Positions 560 to 57,827 of a stretch of DNA of 64,000 bases are shown here, one piece after another; the first letter of the stretch is position 1; every line of letters starts with the position of its first letter. The translations under genes were made by a program, and so were the position numbers. The notes beneath the pieces are model-generated. The model saw only the letters and a list, made by a program, of their open reading frames with translations. It was not told the DNA's origin and searched no databases. Origin of the DNA: Escherichia phage KIT06; sequence record OQ349392.1. The stretch is one strand, 5' to 3'.

Positions 560-847
560 ATGAAAACTTTCAAAGAATTTACTTCTACAACTATCCCGGT
601 TTCTACTATTACTGAAGCTACTCTTACTTCTGAAGTTATTAAAGCAAATAAAGGACGAGAAGGTAAACCAATGATTAGTTTGGTTGATGGCGAAGAAATC
701 AAAGGTACTGTTTACCTAGGTGATGGGTGGTCTGCTAAAAAGGATGGTGCTACAATCATTATCTCTCCTGCTGAAGAAACTGCGTTGTTTAAAGCTAAAC
801 ACATTTCTGCGGCACATCTCAAGATTATTGCTAAAAATCTTTTGTAA
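560..847 (+). CDS. ipI: internal protein I (capsid-targeted; anti-type-IV-restriction IPI in T4)
   Basis: 95 aa; N-terminal MKTFKEF capsid-targeting-like sequence with I-T-E site at residue 19; C-terminus ...HISAAHLKIIAKNLL as recalled for T4 IPI. Confidence 0.6.
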   Translation: MKTFKEFTSTTIPVSTITEATLTSEVIKANKGREGKPMISLVDGEEIKGTVYLGDGWSAKKDGATIIISPAEETALFKAKHISAAHLKIIAKNLL

Positions 848-866
848 TAAATATTTCACAAAGTTG

Positions 867-895
867 TTTACATAGGGTTTTAGTTGTGATACTAT
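867..895 (+). promoter_or_regulatory. T4-type early promoter
   Basis: TTTACA-N17-TACTAT with upstream TTTCACAAAG element. Confidence 0.7.
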
Positions 896-923
896 TACCC
901 TATCAACTACTGAGGAGAATAAA

Positions 924-1196
924 ATGAAAACATTTAAAGAATTTATCAATGAAGCTACTTTTAACGAAAAAGTAAAAATTAGCAAAGCTGTCAAGACTAT
1001 GATTGATAACATCAATTACCTATATGGTATTGATTTAACTGACTATGTAACAGTTGGTAACAAACGTAACTATTTCGTGTTTGACATCTCTGAACTTGAC
1101 CAGAATCAAATTAACAACATTGAGCGTTTTGCTAATGATAAGGGTCTTCGTCATGAGTCAGCGGGTTATAAAAAATACGCAATTTATTTAAAATGA
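924..1196 (+). CDS. capsid-targeted internal-protein-like protein (CTS MKTFKEFINE)
   Basis: 90 aa; N-terminal 10 residues match the T4 internal-protein capsid-targeting sequence with I-x-E site; own early promoter and GAGGAGAATAAAATG leader. Confidence 0.55.
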   Translation: MKTFKEFINEATFNEKVKISKAVKTMIDNINYLYGIDLTDYVTVGNKRNYFVFDISELDQNQINNIERFANDKGLRHESAGYKKYAIYLK

Positions 1197-1197
1197 G

Positions 1198-1226
1198 TTT
1201 ACTTTTAAATAGGGTTGTGGTACTAT
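1198..1226 (+). promoter_or_regulatory. T4-type early promoter
   Basis: TTTACT-N17-TACTAT, TG-extended. Confidence 0.65.
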
Positions 1227-1256
1227 TACCTTATCAAAATTAATTAGGAAAATAAA

Positions 1257-1565
1257 ATGAAAACTTACCAAGAATTTATCAATGAAGCGGCTGCACCAAA
1301 GACATTCATTATTTATACTCAAGCGGGTCTTGATGATGAGTATGCGGAAGCAATTCTGAGGTCACTTGCTAAGAACGGCGTTGAAGTAATCGCCTCGGAC
1401 TTTAAGAAAGGGGCTTCCGAGCTGTTTATTTCTATAACTAAAGGATCTAAAGCTAAAATCAAATCATCATTCGGAGTTGCTCGTACCGATCAAATCGACA
1501 ATCATGACTTTAAACAAACTGGTGCTAAACGGCAGAACACAATTGCATCACGCGGAATAAAATAG
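1257..1565 (+). CDS. capsid-targeted internal-protein-like protein (CTS MKTYQEFINE)
   Basis: 102 aa; CTS-type N-terminus; preceded by AGGAAAATAAAATG leader identical to the one before ipI. Confidence 0.55.
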   Translation: MKTYQEFINEAAAPKTFIIYTQAGLDDEYAEAILRSLAKNGVEVIASDFKKGASELFISITKGSKAKIKSSFGVARTDQIDNHDFKQTGAKRQNTIASRGIK

Positions 1566-1576
1566 TTTATAAACCG

Positions 1577-1605
1577 TTTACTTTTAGATAGGGTAGTGAT
1601 ATTAT
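1577..1605 (+). promoter_or_regulatory. T4-type early promoter
   Basis: TTTACT-N17-TATTAT. Confidence 0.65.
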
Positions 1606-1633
1606 TACCCTATCAACTACTGAGGAGAATAAA

Positions 1634-1857
1634 ATGAAAACTTATCAAAAATTTATCGCTGAAGCTAAAAGACATGAAGATGAACTACCAATTGTTACGA
1701 AAACTTTTGATGGTACATTAAGTGATTTTAAAAAATTCCTAGCGATAAACTTTCTAAGTTAACTGGCTCTATTAGTGAAAAGGATGGTAAAGTCACGTTT
1801 TCTGCTCGTGGCACTGCTAATCTTAAAAAGCTTTTGAAAGCTGCTGGAGCGGAATAA
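1634..1857 (+). pseudogene. frameshifted CTS-type internal-protein gene
   Basis: ATG 1634 opens MKTYQKFIAEA... which stops at 1760-1762; the -1 frame continues from the A-run at 1730-1735 to a stop at 1855-1857 (…KLSKLTGSISEKDGKVTFSARGTANLKKLLKAAGAE). Confidence 0.5.
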
Positions 1858-8583: not shown

Positions 8584-9114
<531 letters not shown>

Positions 9115-9185: not shown

Positions 9186-9503
9186 ATGAAAACGTTTAAA
9201 GAATTTATTGCAGAATCTGCCCAAGGACAACGTGTAGAAGGCGGTTATATCTGGATTGAACAAGTTGAGCCGCCAAGTCGCACTTCTACAGGTAAATGGA
9301 AAATTACTGTTGATGGTCCTGGTGGTAAACGTAGGACTCTTAAAGAAATTAATGGGTACTATGAAGAAGCTCTTTCGGATGCAGGAACTTACATGATGCA
9401 AATCATGATTAAAAACCCTGAAAACCGTTTTGCAGCTAGAGTTTTCCGACGCATCGGTAATAAACTTTATGACGCATACTCTAAAAACTTCCCTAAAGAA
9501 TAA
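9186..9503 (+). CDS. ipII: internal protein II
   Basis: 105 aa with CTS MKTFKEFIAE. Confidence 0.8.
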   Translation: MKTFKEFIAESAQGQRVEGGYIWIEQVEPPSRTSTGKWKITVDGPGGKRRTLKEINGYYEEALSDAGTYMMQIMIKNPENRFAARVFRRIGNKLYDAYSKNFPKE

Positions 9504-9529
9504 CATGAATTAAAACAATAGGAACAAAA

Positions 9530-10108
9530 ATGAAAACGTATCAAGAATTTATTGCTGAAGCTTCTGTAGTAAAGGCCAAAGGCATTAATAAGGACGAGTG
9601 GAACTATCGTGGTGGAAACGGCTTTGACCCTAAAACAGCCCCTATTGAACGATACTTAGCTACAAAAGCTTCCGATTTTAAAGCTTTCGCTTGGGAAGGA
9701 CTTCGCTGGCGTACCGATTTAAATATTGAAGTTGACGGACTTAAATTTGGTCATATTCAAGATGTTGTTGCTAGTAACTTGGACGCAGCTTTTGTTAAAG
9801 CTGACGGTGACCTTCGTCGCTGGAATTTAAAACTATTCTCTAAACAGAAAGGCCCGGTGTTTGTGCCTAAAGCTGGTAAATGGGTTATTGATAATAAATT
9901 AGCTAAGGCTGTCAACTACGCTGGCCTTGAATTCGCCAAGCATAAATCATCATGGAAAGGTCTTGATGCAATGGCCTTCCGTAAAGAATTTGCTGATGTT
10001 ATGGCTAAAGGCGGCTTTAAGGCAGAAATAGATACCTCTAAAGGTACGTTTAAGGACGCTAATGTTCAGTACGCTTATGCCGTTGCTAATGCAGCCCGTG
10101 GTAATTAA
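9530..10108 (+). CDS. ipIII: internal protein III
   Basis: 192 aa with CTS MKTYQEFIAE. Confidence 0.85.
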   Translation: MKTYQEFIAEASVVKAKGINKDEWNYRGGNGFDPKTAPIERYLATKASDFKAFAWEGLRWRTDLNIEVDGLKFGHIQDVVASNLDAAFVKADGDLRRWNLKLFSKQKGPVFVPKAGKWVIDNKLAKAVNYAGLEFAKHKSSWKGLDAMAFRKEFADVMAKGGFKAEIDTSKGTFKDANVQYAYAVANAARGN

Positions 10109-15130: not shown

Positions 15131-15138
15131 TATAAATA
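15131..15138 (+). promoter_or_regulatory. T4 late promoter (TATAAATA)
   Basis: Exact TATAAATA 26 bp before ATG 15164. Confidence 0.55.
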
Positions 15139-52632: not shown

Positions 52633-54060
52633 GTGGTAGAAATTATTCTTTCTCATCTCATATTTGATCAAGCTTATTTTTCAAAAGTTTGGCCATATAT
52701 GGATTCAGAATATTTTGAAAGTGGTCCGGCTAAAAATACGTTCAAATTAATTAAATCTCATGTTAATGAGTATCATAGCGTTCCATCCATTAATGCGTTA
52801 AATGTTGCATTAGAAAATAGTTCATTTACTGAAACAGAATATTCTGGTGTAAAAACACTTATTTCAAAACTAGCCGATTCTCCGGAAGACCACAGCTGGT
52901 TAGTAAAAGAAACAGAAAAATATGTTCAGCAAAGGGCAATGTTTAATGCCACGTCTAAAATAATTGAAATTCAAACTAATGCTGAGCTTCCTCCGGAAAA
53001 ACGAAATAAGAAAATGCCAGATGTAGGTGCTATTCCTGACATCATGCGCCAAGCATTATCAATTTCATTTGATAGTTACGTTGGTCATGATTGGATGGAT
53101 GACTACGAAGCACGTTGGCTATCTTATATGAATAAAGCTCGTAAGGTTCCATTTAAACTCAAAATTCTAAATAAAATTACTAAAGGCGGAGCTGAGACTG
53201 GAACACTGAACGTTTTAATGGCTGGTGTTAACGTTGGTAAGTCATTAGGTCTGTGTTCATTGGCAGCAGATTATTTACAGCTTGGACATAATGTTCTTTA
53301 CATTTCCATGGAAATGGCAGAAGAAGTCTGTGCTAAGCGTATTGACGCTAATATGCTTGATGTTTCTCTTGATGACATTGATGATGGGCATATTTCTTAC
53401 GCTGAGTATAAAGGAAAAATGGAAAAATGGCGTGAGAAATCTACTCTCGGTCGTTTAATCGTTAAACAGTATCCTACTGGTGGAGCAGACGCTAATACAT
53501 TTCGATCGCTTTTAAACGAATTAAAGCTCAAGAAGAATTTTGTTCCAACAATCATTATTGTTGACTATCTAGGTATTTGTAAATCTTGCCGCATCAGAGT
53601 TTACTCAGAAAATAGTTACACAACTGTTAAAGCTATCGCAGAGGAATTGCGTGCTCTGGCTGTTGAAACCGAAACTGTTCTTTGGACTGCAGCACAGGTT
53701 GGTAAGCAAGCTTGGGATTCTTCTGATGTTAACATGAGCGATATTGCAGAATCTGCCGGTCTTCCAGCAACAGCCGATTTTATGCTTGCGGTCATTGAAA
53801 CCGAGGAGTTAGCAGCTGCTGAACAACAACTCATTAAGCAAATCAAATCACGATATGGTGATAAGAATAAATGGAATAAGTTTTTGATGGGTGTTCAAAA
53901 AGGAAATCAGAAATGGGTAGAAATTGAACAAGATTCTACTCCAACTGAAGTGAACGAAGTAGCAGGTTCACAGCAGATTCAGGCTGAGCAGAATCGCTAT
54001 CAAAGAAACGAATCTACTCGAGCCCAGTTAGATGCTTTGGCAAATGAATTAAAATTTTAG
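52633..54060 (+). CDS. 41: replicative DNA helicase gp41
   Basis: 475 aa, GTG start after AAGGAG; Walker A GVNVGKS. Confidence 0.95.
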   Translation: MVEIILSHLIFDQAYFSKVWPYMDSEYFESGPAKNTFKLIKSHVNEYHSVPSINALNVALENSSFTETEYSGVKTLISKLADSPEDHSWLVKETEKYVQQRAMFNATSKIIEIQTNAELPPEKRNKKMPDVGAIPDIMRQALSISFDSYVGHDWMDDYEARWLSYMNKARKVPFKLKILNKITKGGAETGTLNVLMAGVNVGKSLGLCSLAADYLQLGHNVLYISMEMAEEVCAKRIDANMLDVSLDDIDDGHISYAEYKGKMEKWREKSTLGRLIVKQYPTGGADANTFRSLLNELKLKKNFVPTIIIVDYLGICKSCRIRVYSENSYTTVKAIAEELRALAVETETVLWTAAQVGKQAWDSSDVNMSDIAESAGLPATADFMLAVIETEELAAAEQQLIKQIKSRYGDKNKWNKFLMGVQKGNQKWVEIEQDSTPTEVNEVAGSQQIQAEQNRYQRNESTRAQLDALANELKF

Positions 54061-54089
54061 TTTACAAGCTGACAGGACTATGGTATAGT
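54061..54089 (+). promoter_or_regulatory. T4-type early promoter
   Basis: TTTACA-N17-TATAGT abutting gene 41 stop. Confidence 0.65.
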
Positions 54090-54118: not shown

Positions 54119-54301
54119 ATGGAATTGGTAAAGGTAGTTTTTATGGGGTGGTTTAAGAATGAAAGCATGTTTACTAAAGAAATCACAATGATGAAAGACG
54201 ACGTTCAATGGGCTACTACTCAATATGCTGAAGTTAATAAAGCATTAGTTAAAGCTTTCATTGATGACAAGAAAGTATGCGAAGTGGATTGCCGAGGGTA
54301 A
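54119..54301 (+). CDS. dmd: Dmd, inhibitor of host RnlA/LsoA RNase toxins (T4 61.5)
   Basis: 60 aa MELVKVVFMGWFKNESMFTKEITMMKDDVQWATTQYAEVNKALVKAFIDDKKVCEVDCRG; first gene after 41 as in T4. Confidence 0.8.
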   Translation: MELVKVVFMGWFKNESMFTKEITMMKDDVQWATTQYAEVNKALVKAFIDDKKVCEVDCRG

Positions 54302-54302
54302 T

Positions 54303-54545
54303 ATGCATATCGTTTTATTTAAACCTACTCCGTATAATGTCAGGAAAAATACTCAATTCAAAGCACTTATTGCAGATACGTGGGAATTGGTGTTAGATAT
54401 TCCAGCAGAAGAAAGTCCTCCATTTGGTCGAGTGGAATTTATTAAGTTTGCTGTGCGCCCTACGAAGCGGCAGATTCGCCAATGCAAAAGATACTTTCGT
54501 AAAATCGTCAAGTTAAAGAAACAGTTATTGATGCTAGTAAAATAG
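54303..54545 (+). CDS. hypothetical small basic protein
   Basis: ATG 54303 after GAGGGTAAT. Confidence 0.45.
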   Translation: MHIVLFKPTPYNVRKNTQFKALIADTWELVLDIPAEESPPFGRVEFIKFAVRPTKRQIRQCKRYFRKIVKLKKQLLMLVK

Positions 54546-54548
54546 TAG

Positions 54549-54577
54549 TTTACAAGCTGATAGAGTTGTGTTATAGT
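54549..54577 (+). promoter_or_regulatory. T4-type early promoter
   Basis: TTTACA-N17-TATAGT. Confidence 0.65.
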
Positions 54578-54608
54578 AATTCTATCAGCTAATCGCGGAG
54601 AAAAGAAA

Positions 54609-54863
54609 ATGATGCTAGTTAATAGAGAATATCAGTTTAAATCAGAAGAAGATTTGGAAAAATTCGCAAGTGGTTGTGAACTGAATAGACGCACAGCTAA
54701 AGTCATAGGATTAAAACCCTTTACAGTTCTAGATTGTGAAGTTTCTAAATTCCGCAGAGGGTGTTCTATTAGCGGTCATGCTCTGGTTGATGGGAACACA
54801 TTTTTCTTTGTTTTTAGCGTCAGAGAACTTTTATTGATTAACGAACTTGAGGAAATAAAATAG
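54609..54863 (+). CDS. hypothetical small protein
   Basis: 84 aa after GCGGAGAAAAGAAAATG. Confidence 0.5.
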   Translation: MMLVNREYQFKSEEDLEKFASGCELNRRTAKVIGLKPFTVLDCEVSKFRRGCSISGHALVDGNTFFFVFSVRELLLINELEEIK

Positions 54864-54892
54864 TTTACTTTTGTTAGAAATTGAGATACTAT
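54864..54892 (+). promoter_or_regulatory. T4-type early promoter
   Basis: TTTACT-N17-TACTAT. Confidence 0.65.
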
Positions 54893-54921
54893 TATAAACA
54901 TAAACTACTGAGGAGATTATC

Positions 54922-55215
54922 ATGAAAAAATTTGTTTTTGCTGCAATTTTTGCTTTGGCTTCTTGTGCTGCTCAGCCTGCTATGGCGGGTTATGATAAAG
55001 ATTTGTGCGAATGGTCTATGACTGCAGATCAGACTGAGGTTGAAACTCAGATTGAAGCAGATATTATGAATATCGTTGAGCGTGATCGCCCTGAAATGAA
55101 AGCTGAAGTACAAAAACAGCTTAAGTCTGGTGGTGTAATGCAGTATAATTACGTTCTGTATTGTGATAAAAACTTCAATAATAAAAATATCATCGCTGAA
55201 GTAGTAGGTGAATAA
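54922..55215 (+). CDS. sp: Spackle periplasmic protein (superinfection exclusion)
   Basis: 97 aa with signal peptide MKKFVFAAIFALASCAAQPAMA... Confidence 0.85.
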   Translation: MKKFVFAAIFALASCAAQPAMAGYDKDLCEWSMTADQTEVETQIEADIMNIVERDRPEMKAEVQKQLKSGGVMQYNYVLYCDKNFNNKNIIAEVVGE

Positions 55216-55841
55216 TGCTCTATCAAATGCACAAGTGTAAAGACACGTACAATTATAAAGGTGCCCAGTGTTATATCATCAATCGTGAAAACGTGGGTCC
55301 AGGTCATTCGCATCAATCACGGTTTGTATTCGTTAAAAATAATGAAATTATAGCAGTTGCTAATTACATGCTTGTGACTAATGATGTTAATCCGGTGCCT
55401 TTTACGTATTATAATCTAATGGATTTGGCGTACGATTATAATTGGTTTAATCATGATAATTTGGCTCATATTGAAGGCGTAGGATTTGACATCTCTTATT
55501 CTAGTTACTCGTTGTGTCCTATGAGCCGAGCTCATAAAGAGCCTGAATATTTTTCATTTCGTCGGCGTGTAGACTTTGAACGCAGCACAGAGTATATCGG
55601 TGGAATTTTTGTTAAAGATAATCGAATTACTCGCATTATTTATCCTTTGGGCTGTGGTCAAAAAGATATTGATGTTGATTTAGACTTTACTGAAAACATC
55701 ATTAATCATATTGCTTCTGTGTATTTTGATATTGATCATAAAATTGTAATATGTGGATATGAATTACCATCAGAAAAACAGTCTAAAGTGAATGTTTCTA
55801 TTGATGACCAAATTTTTAATGCTTTTATGAATAGAGGTTAA
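55215..55841 (+). CDS. hypothetical protein in the T4 61.2 position (AdfA-like anti-DarT candidate by synteny)
   Basis: 208-aa ORF between sp and primase; assignment is positional only. Confidence 0.4.
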   Translation: MLYQMHKCKDTYNYKGAQCYIINRENVGPGHSHQSRFVFVKNNEIIAVANYMLVTNDVNPVPFTYYNLMDLAYDYNWFNHDNLAHIEGVGFDISYSSYSLCPMSRAHKEPEYFSFRRRVDFERSTEYIGGIFVKDNRITRIIYPLGCGQKDIDVDLDFTENIINHIASVYFDIDHKIVICGYELPSEKQSKVNVSIDDQIFNAFMNRG

Positions 55842-55842
55842 T

Positions 55843-56007
55843 ATGAAAACGTTTAAAGAATTTATCAAAGAAGATATGGTCGCTGGAGATTCAGGTGGTA
55901 ATCCTGAAAATATCTCTACTGGAACAACGTCAGGCGCTGTAGTAAATAAAGGTCCTGAACAGATTCCTAAAAAGAAAAAAGAGGAATCTAAAGAAAAAGA
56001 AGAGTAA
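55843..56007 (+). CDS. small CTS-bearing protein (54 aa)
   Basis: Not in the track; MKTFKEFIKE N-terminus identical in type to internal-protein CTS; Lys/Glu-rich tail. Confidence 0.4.
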   Translation: MKTFKEFIKEDMVAGDSGGNPENISTGTTSGAVVNKGPEQIPKKKKEESKEKEE

Positions 56008-56009
56008 AA

Positions 56010-57038
56010 ATGTCATCAATACCTTGGATTGATAATGAGTTTGCATACCGTGCGCTAGCTCATTTACCTAAATTCACACAAGTAAATAATAGTTCAACTT
56101 TTAAATTACGGTTTAGATGCCCTGTTTGTGGAGATTCAAAAACCGACCAAAATAAAGCCCGTGGATGGTATTATGGTGATAATAATGAAGGAAATATTCA
56201 TTGTTATAACTGTAACTATCATGCACCAATCGGAATATATTTAAAGGAGTTTGAACCTGATTTATATCGTGAGTATATCTTTGAAATAAGAAAAGAAAAA
56301 GGTAAAAGTCGTCCAGTAGAAAAACCTAAAGAACTTCCTAAACAACCTGAGAAGAAAATAATTAAATCTCTTCCGTCATGTATTAGATTAGATAAACTGG
56401 CGGAAGACCATCCAATTATAAAATACGTAAAAGCTCGCTGTATTCCAAAGGATAAATGGAAATATCTTTGGTTTACAACCGAATGGCCTAAATTAGTTAA
56501 TAGTATAGCACCAGGAACATACAAAAAGGAAATACCTGAGCCCCGTCTTGTTATTCCAATTTATAATGCTAATGGAAAAGCTGAGTCTTTTCAAGGACGT
56601 GCATTAAAGAAAGATGCTCCCCAAAAATATATCACAATCAAAGCTTATCCTGAGGCAACAAAAATCTATGGAGTCGAACGAGTCAAAGATGGTGATGTAT
56701 ATGTTCTAGAAGGACCTATAGATTCACTTTTTATTGAAAACGGTATAGCTATTACGGGTGGTCAATTAGACCTAGAAATTGTTCCATTTAAAGATAGACG
56801 TGTATGGGTTTTAGATAATGAACCTCGTCACCCTGACACTATTAAACGAATGACTAAATTAGTTGATGCAGGAGAAAGGGTTATGTTTTGGGACAAATCT
56901 CCCTGGAAATCAAAAGATGTTAATGATATGATTAGAAAGGAAGGTGCAACCCCTGAACAAATTATGGAATATATGAAAAATAATATTGCACAGGGGTTGA
57001 TGGCTAAAATGCGGCTATCTAAATATGCTAAGATTTAA
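56010..57038 (+). CDS. 61: DNA primase gp61
   Basis: 342 aa with zinc-binding CPVCGDS...CYNCNYH and TOPRIM-like core. Confidence 0.93.
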   Translation: MSSIPWIDNEFAYRALAHLPKFTQVNNSSTFKLRFRCPVCGDSKTDQNKARGWYYGDNNEGNIHCYNCNYHAPIGIYLKEFEPDLYREYIFEIRKEKGKSRPVEKPKELPKQPEKKIIKSLPSCIRLDKLAEDHPIIKYVKARCIPKDKWKYLWFTTEWPKLVNSIAPGTYKKEIPEPRLVIPIYNANGKAESFQGRALKKDAPQKYITIKAYPEATKIYGVERVKDGDVYVLEGPIDSLFIENGIAITGGQLDLEIVPFKDRRVWVLDNEPRHPDTIKRMTKLVDAGERVMFWDKSPWKSKDVNDMIRKEGATPEQIMEYMKNNIAQGLMAKMRLSKYAKI

Positions 57039-57235
57039 ATTAACCCAACTAAAGCAAATGCTAAATCTACGAATGTATCAAGAGTAATTACTGGAATACT
57101 AACGCCATGAGCAATAGCAACTGGCGATAAAACAAAATTCCAAAGTAAAATTCCTATCATAGCAGAAATAGTAAAAGCTATACGTTTTTTATTACCTTTG
57201 ATGGCATTAACAAGTGCCATTAATTTTTGTACCAT
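57035..57235 (-). CDS. small membrane protein on the opposite strand
   Basis: 66 aa, two hydrophobic helices; strong minus-strand AAGGAGG 5 nt before ATG. Confidence 0.55.
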   Translation of the reverse strand: MVQKLMALVNAIKGNKKRIAFTISAMIGILLWNFVLSPVAIAHGVSIPVITLDTFVDLAFALVGLI

Positions 57236-57248
57236 ATGTCCTCCTTAT

Positions 57249-57272
57249 TGCTTTATATATTTATTGTATAAT
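57249..57272 (+). promoter_or_regulatory. MotA-dependent middle promoter
   Basis: MotA box TTGCTTTA, 11-bp spacer, -10 TATAAT; upstream of gene 56. Confidence 0.55.
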
Positions 57273-57308
57273 TAATCTACTAACCCATGAATTGAAAGGA
57301 AAAATAAC

Positions 57309-57827
57309 ATGCCACATTTTAACGAATGTAGTCATCTGATCGAAGGCGCTGATAAAGCTCAAAATGAATACTGGGATATTCTCGGTGATGAAAAAGACCC
57401 GCTGCAGGTTATGCTTGATATGCAGAAATCTTTGCAGGTTCGTTTAGCTAAAGATAAACCTGAATATAACCGTCATCCTGATGATTTGGCTACTGCTGGT
57501 GAAGTTGTTGATTGGCTGCGTAATCAGAAAGATTATATTGATGATGAATTCCGCGAACTTCTGACTTCTCTTGGCGGTATGAGCAATGGCGAAAAAGATG
57601 CATCTGCTGTATGGAAACCTTGGAAGTCACAGCACGGTGAACGCCGTGAAACTCTAATTACTGATTTGTCTCCACAAGACCAGTTAGAAATTAAATTCGA
57701 AATGATTGATATTCTTCATTTCGTTCTGAATATGTTCCAAGGTCTCGGTCTTACGGCTGAAGAAATCTTTAAACTTTATTATCTGAAAAATGCTGAAAAC
57801 TTCGCTCGTCAAGATCGAGGTTATTAA
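57309..57827 (+). CDS. 56: dCTP pyrophosphatase gp56
   Basis: 172 aa M(P)HFNEC(S)HLIEG...NEYWDILGDEKDPLQVMLDMQ...LYYLKNAENFARQDRGY. Confidence 0.92.
   Translation: MPHFNECSHLIEGADKAQNEYWDILGDEKDPLQVMLDMQKSLQVRLAKDKPEYNRHPDDLATAGEVVDWLRNQKDYIDDEFRELLTSLGGMSNGEKDASAVWKPWKSQHGERRETLITDLSPQDQLEIKFEMIDILHFVLNMFQGLGLTAEEIFKLYYLKNAENFARQDRGY

What the first reader, a model, noticed from the sequence alone, without database searches (positions are those of the whole stretch)
55843..56007. CTS-type N-terminus on a 54-aa Lys/Glu-rich peptide far from the ip cassette
MKTFKEFIKE followed by a low-complexity, highly charged tail. The N-terminus alone would target the peptide to the prohead and gp21 cleavage would leave a ~44-aa charged peptide inside the capsid, possibly a DNA-associated injected factor.
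Basis: inference. Interest (0 to 1): 0.5.

Follow-up and report, generated by a model that had tools for sequence, protein, structure and literature searches.

The report
Free-standing copy of capsid N-fist
This 54-residue open reading frame (ORF) is phage T4 gene 61.1, whose start matches the signal that loads internal proteins into the T4 head and whose body copies the piece of the major capsid protein next to its maturation cut, so it is a plausible but unproven overlooked head component.

Summary
The ORF at 55843-56007 (+) is real. It is the ortholog of T4 gene 61.1, a hypothetical protein lying between adfA/61.2 and primase gene 61, in a Tequatrovirus window.

**Observation.** The N-terminus MKTFKEFIKE matches the IPII capsid targeting sequence (CTS) of the same genome at 8 of 10 residues and at the first 23 nucleotides. 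It keeps all four published CTS determinants (positions 4, 7, 8 and 10).

Residues 11-38 are not low complexity. Residues 2-38 align without gaps to gp23 residues 57-93 (46% identity). That stretch covers the gp21 maturation site (FLTE|A in gp23, FIKE|D here) and the whole 26-residue N-fist of mature gp23.

**Family.**
- The ancestral form is about 155 aa: an N-terminal helical domain, a [L/I/M]-x-E site, the N-fist copy, then a basic patch.
- In the Straboviridae examined the gene sits zero to two genes upstream of primase.
- T4 carries a truncated form.
- The hydrophobic-x-Glu site is kept in 152 of 154 members.
- Five lineages have a late-promoter core just upstream.

**Best reading (about 0.4).** The peptide is recruited to the prohead and cut by gp21, and it acts at the shell/scaffold interface rather than as a DNA-bound injected factor. 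No protein-level evidence exists.

The parts
55843..56007 (+). ORF = ortholog of T4 gene 61.1 (54 aa plus stop)
   Evidence: One residue differs from T4 NP_049649. PHROG 1823, E 6.8e-34. More than 450 phage records carry a copy at 95% identity or more.
55843..55872 (+). Residues 1-10, MKTFKEFIKE: CTS-type leader ending in the predicted gp21 site IKE|D
   Evidence: 8/10 residues and 23/23 nt identical to the IPII-like ORF at 9186. Determinant positions 4, 7, 8 and 10 are satisfied. Aligns with gp23 AFGSFLTE|A. AF2 gives a helix at residues 4-11 with pLDDT about 71.
55873..55956 (+). Residues 11-38, DMVAGDSGGNPENISTGTTSGAVVNKGP: paralogue of the gp23* N-terminus. Residues 11-36 correspond to the N-fist (gp23 66-91), followed by Gly-Pro.
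   Evidence: BLASTP 46% identity, ungapped, E 2e-9. In a PDB-wide phmmer search the only hits are gp23 chains, E 0.0039. N-fist limits are from PMC7136217. Purifying selection. This is the only such motif in six frames of the window.
55957..56004 (+). Residues 39-54, EQIPKKKKEESKEKEE: charged tail. The basic patch K43-K46 (55969-55980) is conserved; the acidic end is variable.
   Evidence: Alignment of short forms. Long forms carry KKRKR-type patches. The T6-type variant has a different tail.
55834..55837 (+). GAGG Shine-Dalgarno, 5 nt before the ATG. The 61.2 stop (55839-55841) abuts the start, so the two genes are translationally coupled.
   Evidence: Read directly.
55826..55833 (+). TATGAATA: a one-mismatch relative of the late-promoter box TATAAATA, at the position where five other lineages have ATAAATA. 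Probably not a functional late promoter here.
54061..54089 (+). Sigma-70-type early promoter (TTTACA-17-TATAGT, TG-extended) before dmd. A second one lies at 54549-54577. These are the likely sources of the transcript that reads through 61.1.
   Evidence: An early promoter for dmd-tifA in T4 is stated. T4 61.1 RNA is classed early.
56010..57038 (+). Gene 61 DNA primase, starting 2 nt after the 61.1 stop. It is the conserved downstream partner of 61.1 across the T4 superfamily.

Best explanation
The ORF is T4 gene 61.1. It is a small peptide, disordered on its own, built from three parts.

1. A 10-residue T-even capsid targeting sequence that ends in a prohead-protease site (IKE|D).
2. A complete copy of the 26-residue N-fist, which forms the N-terminus of mature major capsid protein gp23*.
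3. A basic patch followed by a variable charged end.

In effect it is a free-standing paralogue of the gp23 junction between propeptide and N-fist.

Proposed mechanism, all steps inferred. Early transcripts read through from the dmd/tifA promoters and the ORF is translated by coupling to 61.2. Its leader binds the scaffolding core as the internal-protein CTS does, and as the gp23 N-terminal region probably does. gp21 then cuts after Glu10. The 44-residue product behaves like an N-fist: it binds scaffold or shell surfaces normally contacted by the gp23 N-terminus. This is different from coating DNA as an injected effector.

Shown here: the orthology, the CTS identity, the gp23 homology, conservation of the cleavage motif, purifying selection, the ancestral long form and its synteny with primase, and late-promoter cores in other lineages. 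Not shown: packaging, cleavage, or any phenotype.
For: - CTS: 8/10 residues and 23/23 nt identical to the IPII-like ORF of the same genome. No other ORF outside the ip cassettes scores above 4/10.
- The published CTS determinants at positions 4, 7, 8 and 10 are all satisfied.
- gp23 homology: residues 2-38 against gp23 57-93, 46% identity, no gaps, E 2e-9. gp23 chains are the only PDB hits (E 0.0039). In a whole-genome tblastn of RB49 with the first 159 residues of T4 gp23 as query, the RB49 61.1 ORF scores E 1.4e-5. FIKE|D aligns with the gp23 maturation site FLTE|A.
- The gp23 segment concerned lies inside the shell and probably contacts the scaffold before expansion, and forms the N-fist afterwards.
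- [LIVFM]-x-E sits immediately before the N-fist-like core in 152 of 154 family members. Some long forms read YLTEAEVAGD, almost the same as gp23.
- ATAAATA or TATAAATA lies 19-34 nt upstream of the gene in 5 of 13 loci, where that heptamer is otherwise rare (P about 9e-8). In JK45 the same box sits before soc, which acts as a positive control.
- Diverged short forms keep MK(T/S)(Y/F)xE(F/V)(I/L/M)xE.
- The early RNA class is shared with ipI, ipII and ipIII in T4, so it does not argue against packaging.
Against: - No late promoter lies upstream in this window. The nearest + strand TATAAATA boxes are at 15131 and 58221, and the local box is TATGAATA.
- 61.1 has no protein-level class in the T4 time-course proteome. 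I found no report of it in heads or virions. T4 cryo-EM papers describe no N-fist-like extra density; they mention only unassigned helical density under gp24.
- The gene's conserved position is next to primase among replication genes, not in the head module.
- The residue after the predicted cut (P1') is Asp rather than the Ala or Ser of known sites. This is untested.
- Part of the 'CTS' may simply be inherited from the ancestral linker: JK45 has ...EIFKELPLFE|DMVAGD.
Confidence: 0.4

Rival explanations
1. Cytoplasmic mimic or decoy of nascent, uncleaved gp23. The peptide is never packaged. Its copy of the gp23 junction competes for something that recognises that segment. Candidates are the gp21 zymogen (as a pseudo-substrate), the gp22 scaffold, the gp31/GroEL folding route, Soc, or a host immune sensor that reads a short capsid-protein motif as Lit and CapRel do.
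For: The segment copied includes the uncleaved site as well as the N-fist. In T-even phages the gene borders an anti-toxin island of dmd, tifA and adfA, whose other genes have been proposed as antitoxin candidates. T4 RNA for 61.1 is early, before gp23 appears. Defence systems that sense short motifs of major capsid proteins are documented.
Against: The 61.1-61 pair is ancestral and the island was inserted beside it: Aeromonas avDM12 has 41-61.1-61 directly adjacent. So the neighbourhood argument is weak. 61.1 orthologs resemble each other (GGNPE) more than their own gp23 (HGY[N/D]A). This means there is no tracking of the cognate capsid protein. Late-promoter cores in five lineages fit a morphogenetic role better. 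From my memory only, the Gol peptide sensed by Lit lies downstream (about residues 100-128) of the copied stretch; I could not retrieve the source.
Confidence: 0.25
2. Replication-linked role: either an accessory or regulator of the gp41-gp61 primosome, or simply an upstream ORF whose translation sets the expression of primase gene 61.
For: The gene lies zero to two genes upstream of primase in the Tequatrovirus, Krischvirus, Jiaodavirus, Marfavirus, Tegunavirus, Pseudotevenvirus, Lazarusvirus, Chrysonvirus, Schizotequatrovirus and Emdodecavirus genomes examined, and in the unclassified Straboviridae phage Phynn. In a Kyanoviridae pelagiphage it lies within 3.3 kb. In the window the 61.1 stop is 2 nt from the gene 61 ATG, and the purine-rich tail codons lie where a ribosome-binding site would. 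The basic patch could bind nucleic acid.
Confidence: 0.1
3. Vestigial remnant. The T4-type short form is what was left when the ancestral gene of about 155 aa lost its N-terminal domain, and it no longer has a function of its own.
For: T4, Jiaodavirus, Marfavirus and RB49 have short forms of 54-58 aa, while most of the superfamily has forms of 141-166 aa. 61.1 has no protein-level class in the T4 proteome dataset.
Against: There is strong purifying selection on the retained core (pN 0.10 with saturated pS; dN/dS 0.1-0.35). The ORF is intact with a good ribosome-binding site in hundreds of genomes. Short forms with different leaders in separate genera all keep hydrophobic-x-Glu plus the core.
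Confidence: 0.07

Closest known systems
T4 internal proteins IPI, IPII, IPIII (and Alt), which carry the capsid targeting sequence
   Same: An N-terminal 10-mer of the MKT(Y/F)xEFIxE type with the same determinant residues, ending in an L/I-x-E gp21 site. At the DNA level it is identical to the ipII start for 23 nt. Both are small proteins, and their RNA is classed early in T4.
   Different: It lies outside the ip cassettes (46 kb away) and has no late promoter. The mature part is not a basic globular anti-restriction protein; it is a slightly acidic 44-mer that copies a capsid-protein segment. It has deep orthologs across the T4 superfamily, whereas the internal proteins are poorly conserved. 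Packaging has never been shown.
T4 major capsid protein gp23, residues 57-93 (end of the propeptide, the Glu65|Ala66 maturation site, and the N-fist 66-91)
   Same: 46% identity over 37 residues with no gaps. The shared positions include the hydrophobic-x-Glu site and the Gly/Pro/Thr positions (G70, D71, I79, G82, T84, G86, A87, G92, P93).
   Different: It has no HK97-fold body and gives no Pfam Gp23 hit. It is an old paralogue with its own conserved signature (GGNPxNI against HGY[N/D]A[T/S]xI). It is followed by a basic patch instead of the N-arm.
Long-form gp61.1 family (PHROG 2086; annotated 'gp61.1 conserved hypothetical' or 'major capsid protein' in KVP40-like, Acinetobacter, Aeromonas and RB69-like phages)
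   Same: The C-terminal 45-50 residues (site, N-fist copy, basic patch) are orthologous to the whole mature part of the window's ORF, and the position upstream of primase is the same.
   Different: The window's ORF lacks the N-terminal domain of about 100 residues (AF2 pLDDT 83-91 over residues 11-70 of the long-form model; no significant match to a solved fold). In its place is a 10-residue CTS.
Dmd, TifA and AdfA, the anti-toxin proteins of the T4 41-61 interval
   Same: They are neighbours on the same early transcription unit and are small proteins.
   Different: There is no sequence relationship. 61.1 is ancestral to the locus rather than part of the inserted island, and no defence system is known to be affected by it.

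Membership tests
T4 gp61.1 orthologs (PHROG 1823) | Full-length sequence match | tested here: met
   PHROG 1823, E 6.8e-34, residues 1-54 of 54. 53/54 identical to T4 NP_049649.
T4 gp61.1 orthologs (PHROG 1823) | Position immediately upstream of primase gene 61, same strand | tested here: met
CTS-bearing internal head proteins of T-even phages | N-terminal 10-residue CTS with targeting determinants at positions 4 and 7 and processing determinants at 8 and 10 | tested here: met
   F4, F7, I8 and E10 are present. 8/10 identical to the IPII-like ORF and 7/10 to IPIII.
CTS-bearing internal head proteins of T-even phages | Presence in proheads and virions, with removal of the propeptide by gp21 | not testable with these tools
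   No protein class in T4 omics. The T4 virion mass-spectrometry supplements that are held show only IPII, IPIII and Alt figures.
CTS-bearing internal head proteins of T-even phages | Location in an ip cassette served by a late promoter | tested here: not met
   The ORF is 46 kb from the nearest cassette. No TATAAATA lies on the + strand between 15131 and 58221. The ipII/ipIII cassette has two such boxes, at 8586 and 8599.
CTS-bearing internal head proteins of T-even phages | Basic mature protein that travels with the DNA | tested here: not met
   By direct count the predicted mature 44-mer has 7 Lys against 9 Asp/Glu (net about -2). Only the KKKK patch is conserved.
Major capsid protein gp23 (HK97 fold, Pfam Gp23) | HK97-fold body, or a Pfam Gp23 domain hit | tested here: not met
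   The protein has 54 residues and gives no Pfam hit at E<=1. The 'major capsid protein' labels on this ORF in some GenBank records are therefore misleading.
Major capsid protein gp23 (HK97 fold, Pfam Gp23) | Propeptide junction with an L/I-x-E gp21 site followed by the N-fist sequence | tested here: met
Long-form gp61.1 (PHROG 2086) | N-terminal helical domain of about 100 residues | tested here: not met
   The window ORF matches only profile positions 108-154 of 156. tblastn with the N-domain finds no copy in T4-type records among the rows shown.
Anti-defence (anti-toxin) island proteins of the T4 41-61 interval | Demonstrated neutralisation of a host toxin or defence system | not testable with these tools
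   Only adjacency to dmd, tifA and adfA is established.

The most novel reading that the evidence does not exclude
61.1 is an unrecognised structural or assembly component of the T4 head. On this reading it is a free N-fist peptide that is loaded by a CTS and released by gp21. It would then occupy N-fist docking sites that lack a gp23 donor (around the gp24 or portal vertices), or it would time the release of the shell from the scaffold. As a corollary, the internal-protein CTS would itself be a mimic of the gp23 propeptide junction, with 61.1 as the evolutionary link between the two.
Probability: 0.15. Interest if true: 0.75.

Novelty: new variant of a known kind. Interest (0 to 1): 0.5.

Why it matters
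T4 head assembly is one of the best-studied morphogenetic pathways, and its CTS is used to load foreign proteins into capsids. A conserved small gene that combines a CTS, a protease site and a full copy of the capsid protein's N-fist would, if packaged, add a component to that pathway. It would also suggest how the CTS works: by imitating the capsid protein's own scaffold-binding junction.

The predictions are directly testable by targeted mass spectrometry, CTS-reporter fusions and a deletion mutant.

Even if the peptide is not packaged, the family is worth attention. It has about 1,850 sequence clusters and is nearly universal next to primase in T4-like phages. It has no assigned function, and databases currently mislabel it as 'major capsid protein'.

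Tried and rejected
- **Pfam** scans of the short and long forms gave no hits.
- **AF2** of the short form was low-confidence, which fits disorder but gives no other information.
- **Co-variation** between each phage's 61.1 and its own gp23 was rejected. T4 and RB49 61.1 resemble each other more than they resemble their cognate gp23.
- **Overlap with the Gol/Lit region** of gp23 could not be checked. The primary papers were not retrievable. From memory, the Gol peptide lies downstream of the copied stretch.
- **Literature searches** for gp61.1 returned only gene tables. The T4 genome review was not held.
- **Virion or time-course proteomics** gave no protein-level record for 61.1.
- **Codon-level identity with ipII** (23 of 23 nt) is only suggestive of recombination. 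The JK45 linker (TTTAAAGAG...) shows that part of the motif may be ancestral.
- **The early RNA class** as an argument against packaging was rejected, because ipI, ipII and ipIII have the same RNA class in that dataset.

Full report
**What is there**

The window is a Tequatrovirus, about 97.8% identical to several E. coli T4-like phages over this stretch. The + strand carries this gene order:

| Gene | Coordinates |
|---|---|
| Helicase 41 | 52633-54060 |
| dmd | 54119-54301 |
| 61.4/tifA | 54609-54863 |
| sp | 54922-55215 |
| 61.2/AdfA (Pfam PF23813, E 5e-134) | 55215-55841 |
| The flagged ORF | 55843-56007 |
| Primase 61 | 56010-57038 |

The ORF is T4 gene 61.1. It is 53/54 identical to NP_049649 and matches PHROG 1823 at E 6.8e-34. 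It has a GAGG ribosome-binding site 5 nt upstream. Its ATG lies 1 nt after the 61.2 stop, and its own stop lies 2 nt before the gene 61 ATG.

**The observation**

The N-terminus MKTFKEFIKE is a genuine match to the T-even capsid targeting sequence (CTS).
- The same window holds six ORFs with CTS-type starts in two ip cassettes (560-1762 and 9186-10108).
- Among 816 ATG-ORFs of at least 30 aa, nothing outside those cassettes and 61.1 scores above 4/10 against MKTYQEFIAE.
- 61.1 shares its first eight residues and its first 23 nucleotides with the IPII-like ORF at 9186.
- Published mutagenesis places targeting at CTS positions 4 and 7 and processing at positions 8 and 10 (PMC9026906). 61.1 has Phe4, Phe7, Ile8 and Glu10.

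Only residues 43-54 are a charged run.

**What the body of the peptide is**

Residues 2-38 align without gaps to T4 gp23 residues 57-93, with 17 of 37 identical and E 2e-9. In a search of all PDB sequences the only hits are gp23 chains (E 0.0039). In a whole-genome tblastn of RB49 with the first 159 residues of T4 gp23 as query, the RB49 61.1 ORF is found at E 1.4e-5.

FIKE|D lines up with FLTE|A, the Glu65/Ala66 site where gp21 matures gp23. Residues 11-36 correspond to gp23 66-91, which is the N-fist (PMC7136217). The following comes from PMC9546572 and PMC9958956:
- The N-fist is a 25-residue structure that contacts four subunits and helps form the Soc binding site.
- Before expansion this region lies inside the shell and probably touches the gp22 scaffold.
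- Head-length mutations A66D, A94V and G97S lie in this N-terminal region.

Some GenBank and UniRef entries call the ORF 'major capsid (domain) protein'. That label is misleading, because there is no Pfam Gp23 hit and no HK97 body.

**The family**

In most of the T4 superfamily the gene encodes 141-166 aa. It consists of an N-terminal domain of about 100 residues, a hydrophobic-x-Glu site, the N-fist-like core MVAGDxGGxxxNIAxGxTTGAVxNxGP, and a basic patch.

I read long forms in these phages:
- Vibrio R11Z
- Acinetobacter AB-Navy1
- Aeromonas avDM12
- Shigella JK45
- Yersinia TG1
- Citrobacter Miller
- Klebsiella GWPR59
- Pantoea Phynn
- Sinorhizobium phiM19

In all of these the gene sits zero to two genes upstream of primase, and Aeromonas avDM12 has 41-61.1-61 directly adjacent. 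A pelagiphage of the Kyanoviridae has an N-domain homolog 3.3 kb upstream of primase. A profile search found 1,854 clusters (at 50% identity) at E of 1e-3 or better.

Short forms of 54-58 aa occur in several genera with different leaders:

| Lineage | Leader and junction |
|---|---|
| T4-type | MKTFKEFIKE\|D |
| Jiaodavirus | MKTYKEFVTE\|M |
| Marfavirus | MTLLEKYKQSLSE\|M |
| RB49 | MIGFKQFVEENKLKE\|D |

The JK45 linker reads ...EIFKELPLFE|DMVAGD. Part of the T4 'CTS' may therefore be inherited from the ancestral linker rather than acquired from an ip gene.

**Constraint**
- Of 154 family members containing the core, 152 have [LIVFM]-x-E directly before it (P3: L 105, I 25, M 15, V 4, F 3). 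This is the gp21 consensus.
- Some long forms read YLTEAEVAGD, nearly the same as gp23.
- The core is under purifying selection. Against Mineola, pS is 0.945 (saturated) and pN is 0.10; against P545, dN/dS is 0.125.
- 61.1 orthologs share their own signature (GGNPE), distinct from gp23 (HGY[N/D]A). This is therefore an old paralogy, not continual copying of the cognate capsid gene.

**Expression**

In the window there is no TATAAATA on the + strand between 15131 and 58221. The local sequence is TATGAATA. The likely promoters are the early ones at 54061 and 54549.

In T4, 61.1 RNA is classed early and the protein has no class. ipI, ipII and ipIII also have 'early' RNA in that dataset (PMC9697503 supplements). 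Timing therefore does not exclude packaging.

In 5 of 13 related loci the late-promoter core ATAAATA lies 19-34 nt before the 61.1 ATG, and it is a perfect TATAAATA in Yersinia TG1 and Klebsiella P545. Only 11 such heptamers occur in 58 kb, giving a binomial P of about 9e-8. In JK45 the same box marks soc. A late promoter embedded among replication genes points to a morphogenetic role for the family.

**Interpretation**

The sequence evidence converges on a peptide that carries the two features which take a protein into the T4 prohead core and release it there: a CTS and a gp21 site. These are followed by a copy of the capsid protein's own scaffold- and shell-contacting N-terminus.

I therefore rank 'prohead-recruited, gp21-processed, acting at the shell/scaffold interface' first, at about 0.4. 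It disagrees on the product. By direct count the 44-mer would be slightly acidic. Its conserved part is an N-fist rather than a DNA-binding tail, and only the KKKK patch of the tail is conserved.

The rivals are:
- A cytoplasmic mimic or decoy of uncleaved gp23 (0.25). This is favoured by the anti-toxin neighbourhood. It is weakened because the 61.1-61 pair is ancestral and the island was inserted beside it.
- A primosome or translational-coupling role (0.1). The synteny supports it, but it explains none of the capsid-like features.
- A vestigial remnant (0.07). This is contradicted by the evidence of selection.

Nothing at the protein level has been shown by anyone, as far as I could find.

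**Novelty**

The gene is annotated in T4, and automated pipelines have noticed a capsid-protein resemblance. I found no paper that discusses either the CTS or the N-fist copy.

Relative to known CTS-bearing internal proteins it is a new variant. It lies outside the cassettes, has deep orthologs, and its mature part copies a capsid segment. It also has ancestral forms in which the protease site is internal.

Noticed in passing
window 54119-55841: Anti-toxin island dmd / 61.4 (tifA) / sp / 61.2 (AdfA, PF23813, E 5e-134), inserted between helicase 41 and the ancestral 61.1-61 pair. Aeromonas phage avDM12 (L007) has 41-61.1-61 with nothing in between.
   Followed up: partly
window 560-1762 and 9186-10108: Two ip cassettes hold six CTS-type ORFs. 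The one at 560-847 (MKTFKEFTST...) has the first seven CTS residues but lacks the I-x-E processing site. TATAAATA boxes at 8586 and 8599 precede the second cassette.
   Followed up: partly
window 57035-57309: There is no dam-sized ORF between primase 61 and dCTPase 56, unlike T4 where dam sits there. Instead there is a 66-aa ORF on the minus strand (57035-57235, hydrophobic) and a terminator-like hairpin at 57198-57223.
   Followed up: no
RB49 genome OZ035808.1 18383-18619 (+), L016: A 78-aa ORF starting MISFKRFLVEAAIDG... is the only other RB49 ORF whose N-terminus resembles that of RB49 61.1 (MIGFKQFVEE). It is a candidate CTS-bearing internal protein in a phage without T4-type ip genes.
   Followed up: no
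L020 (Pelagibacter phage HTVC008M) 3989-6044: The N-domain homolog (201 aa) carries a different, beta-rich C-terminal domain. Two genes downstream, a 359-aa ORF starts MKTFTDF... and contains EDIANVAGDGAV...KKKK. The CTS-like and N-fist-like module is therefore attached to a different protein here.
   Followed up: no
proteins P0129, P0133, P0143, P0144, P0259 (metagenomic long forms): Several long forms end in a second CTS-like motif after the basic patch (KTLKEFIED, IKSFLEFDSK, GFKEWIEKD). Two others run on into a further module that begins (M)VDFKQFVE or NFKQFVE.
   Followed up: no
L009 2454, L013 663, L006 2139, L007 2133, L012 682: Late-promoter cores (TATAAATA or ATAAATA) lie 19-34 nt upstream of 61.1 homologs in Yersinia TG1, Klebsiella P545, Acinetobacter AB-Navy1, Aeromonas avDM12 and Klebsiella Mineola. 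This implies late transcription of a gene embedded in the replication module.
   Followed up: yes
protein P0003 (T6-type 61.1, 62 aa): After KKKK the tail switches to RNLKKKKSKNVINTLD instead of EESKEKEE. This looks like a frameshift-type variant and shows that the acidic end of the T4 tail is dispensable.
   Followed up: no
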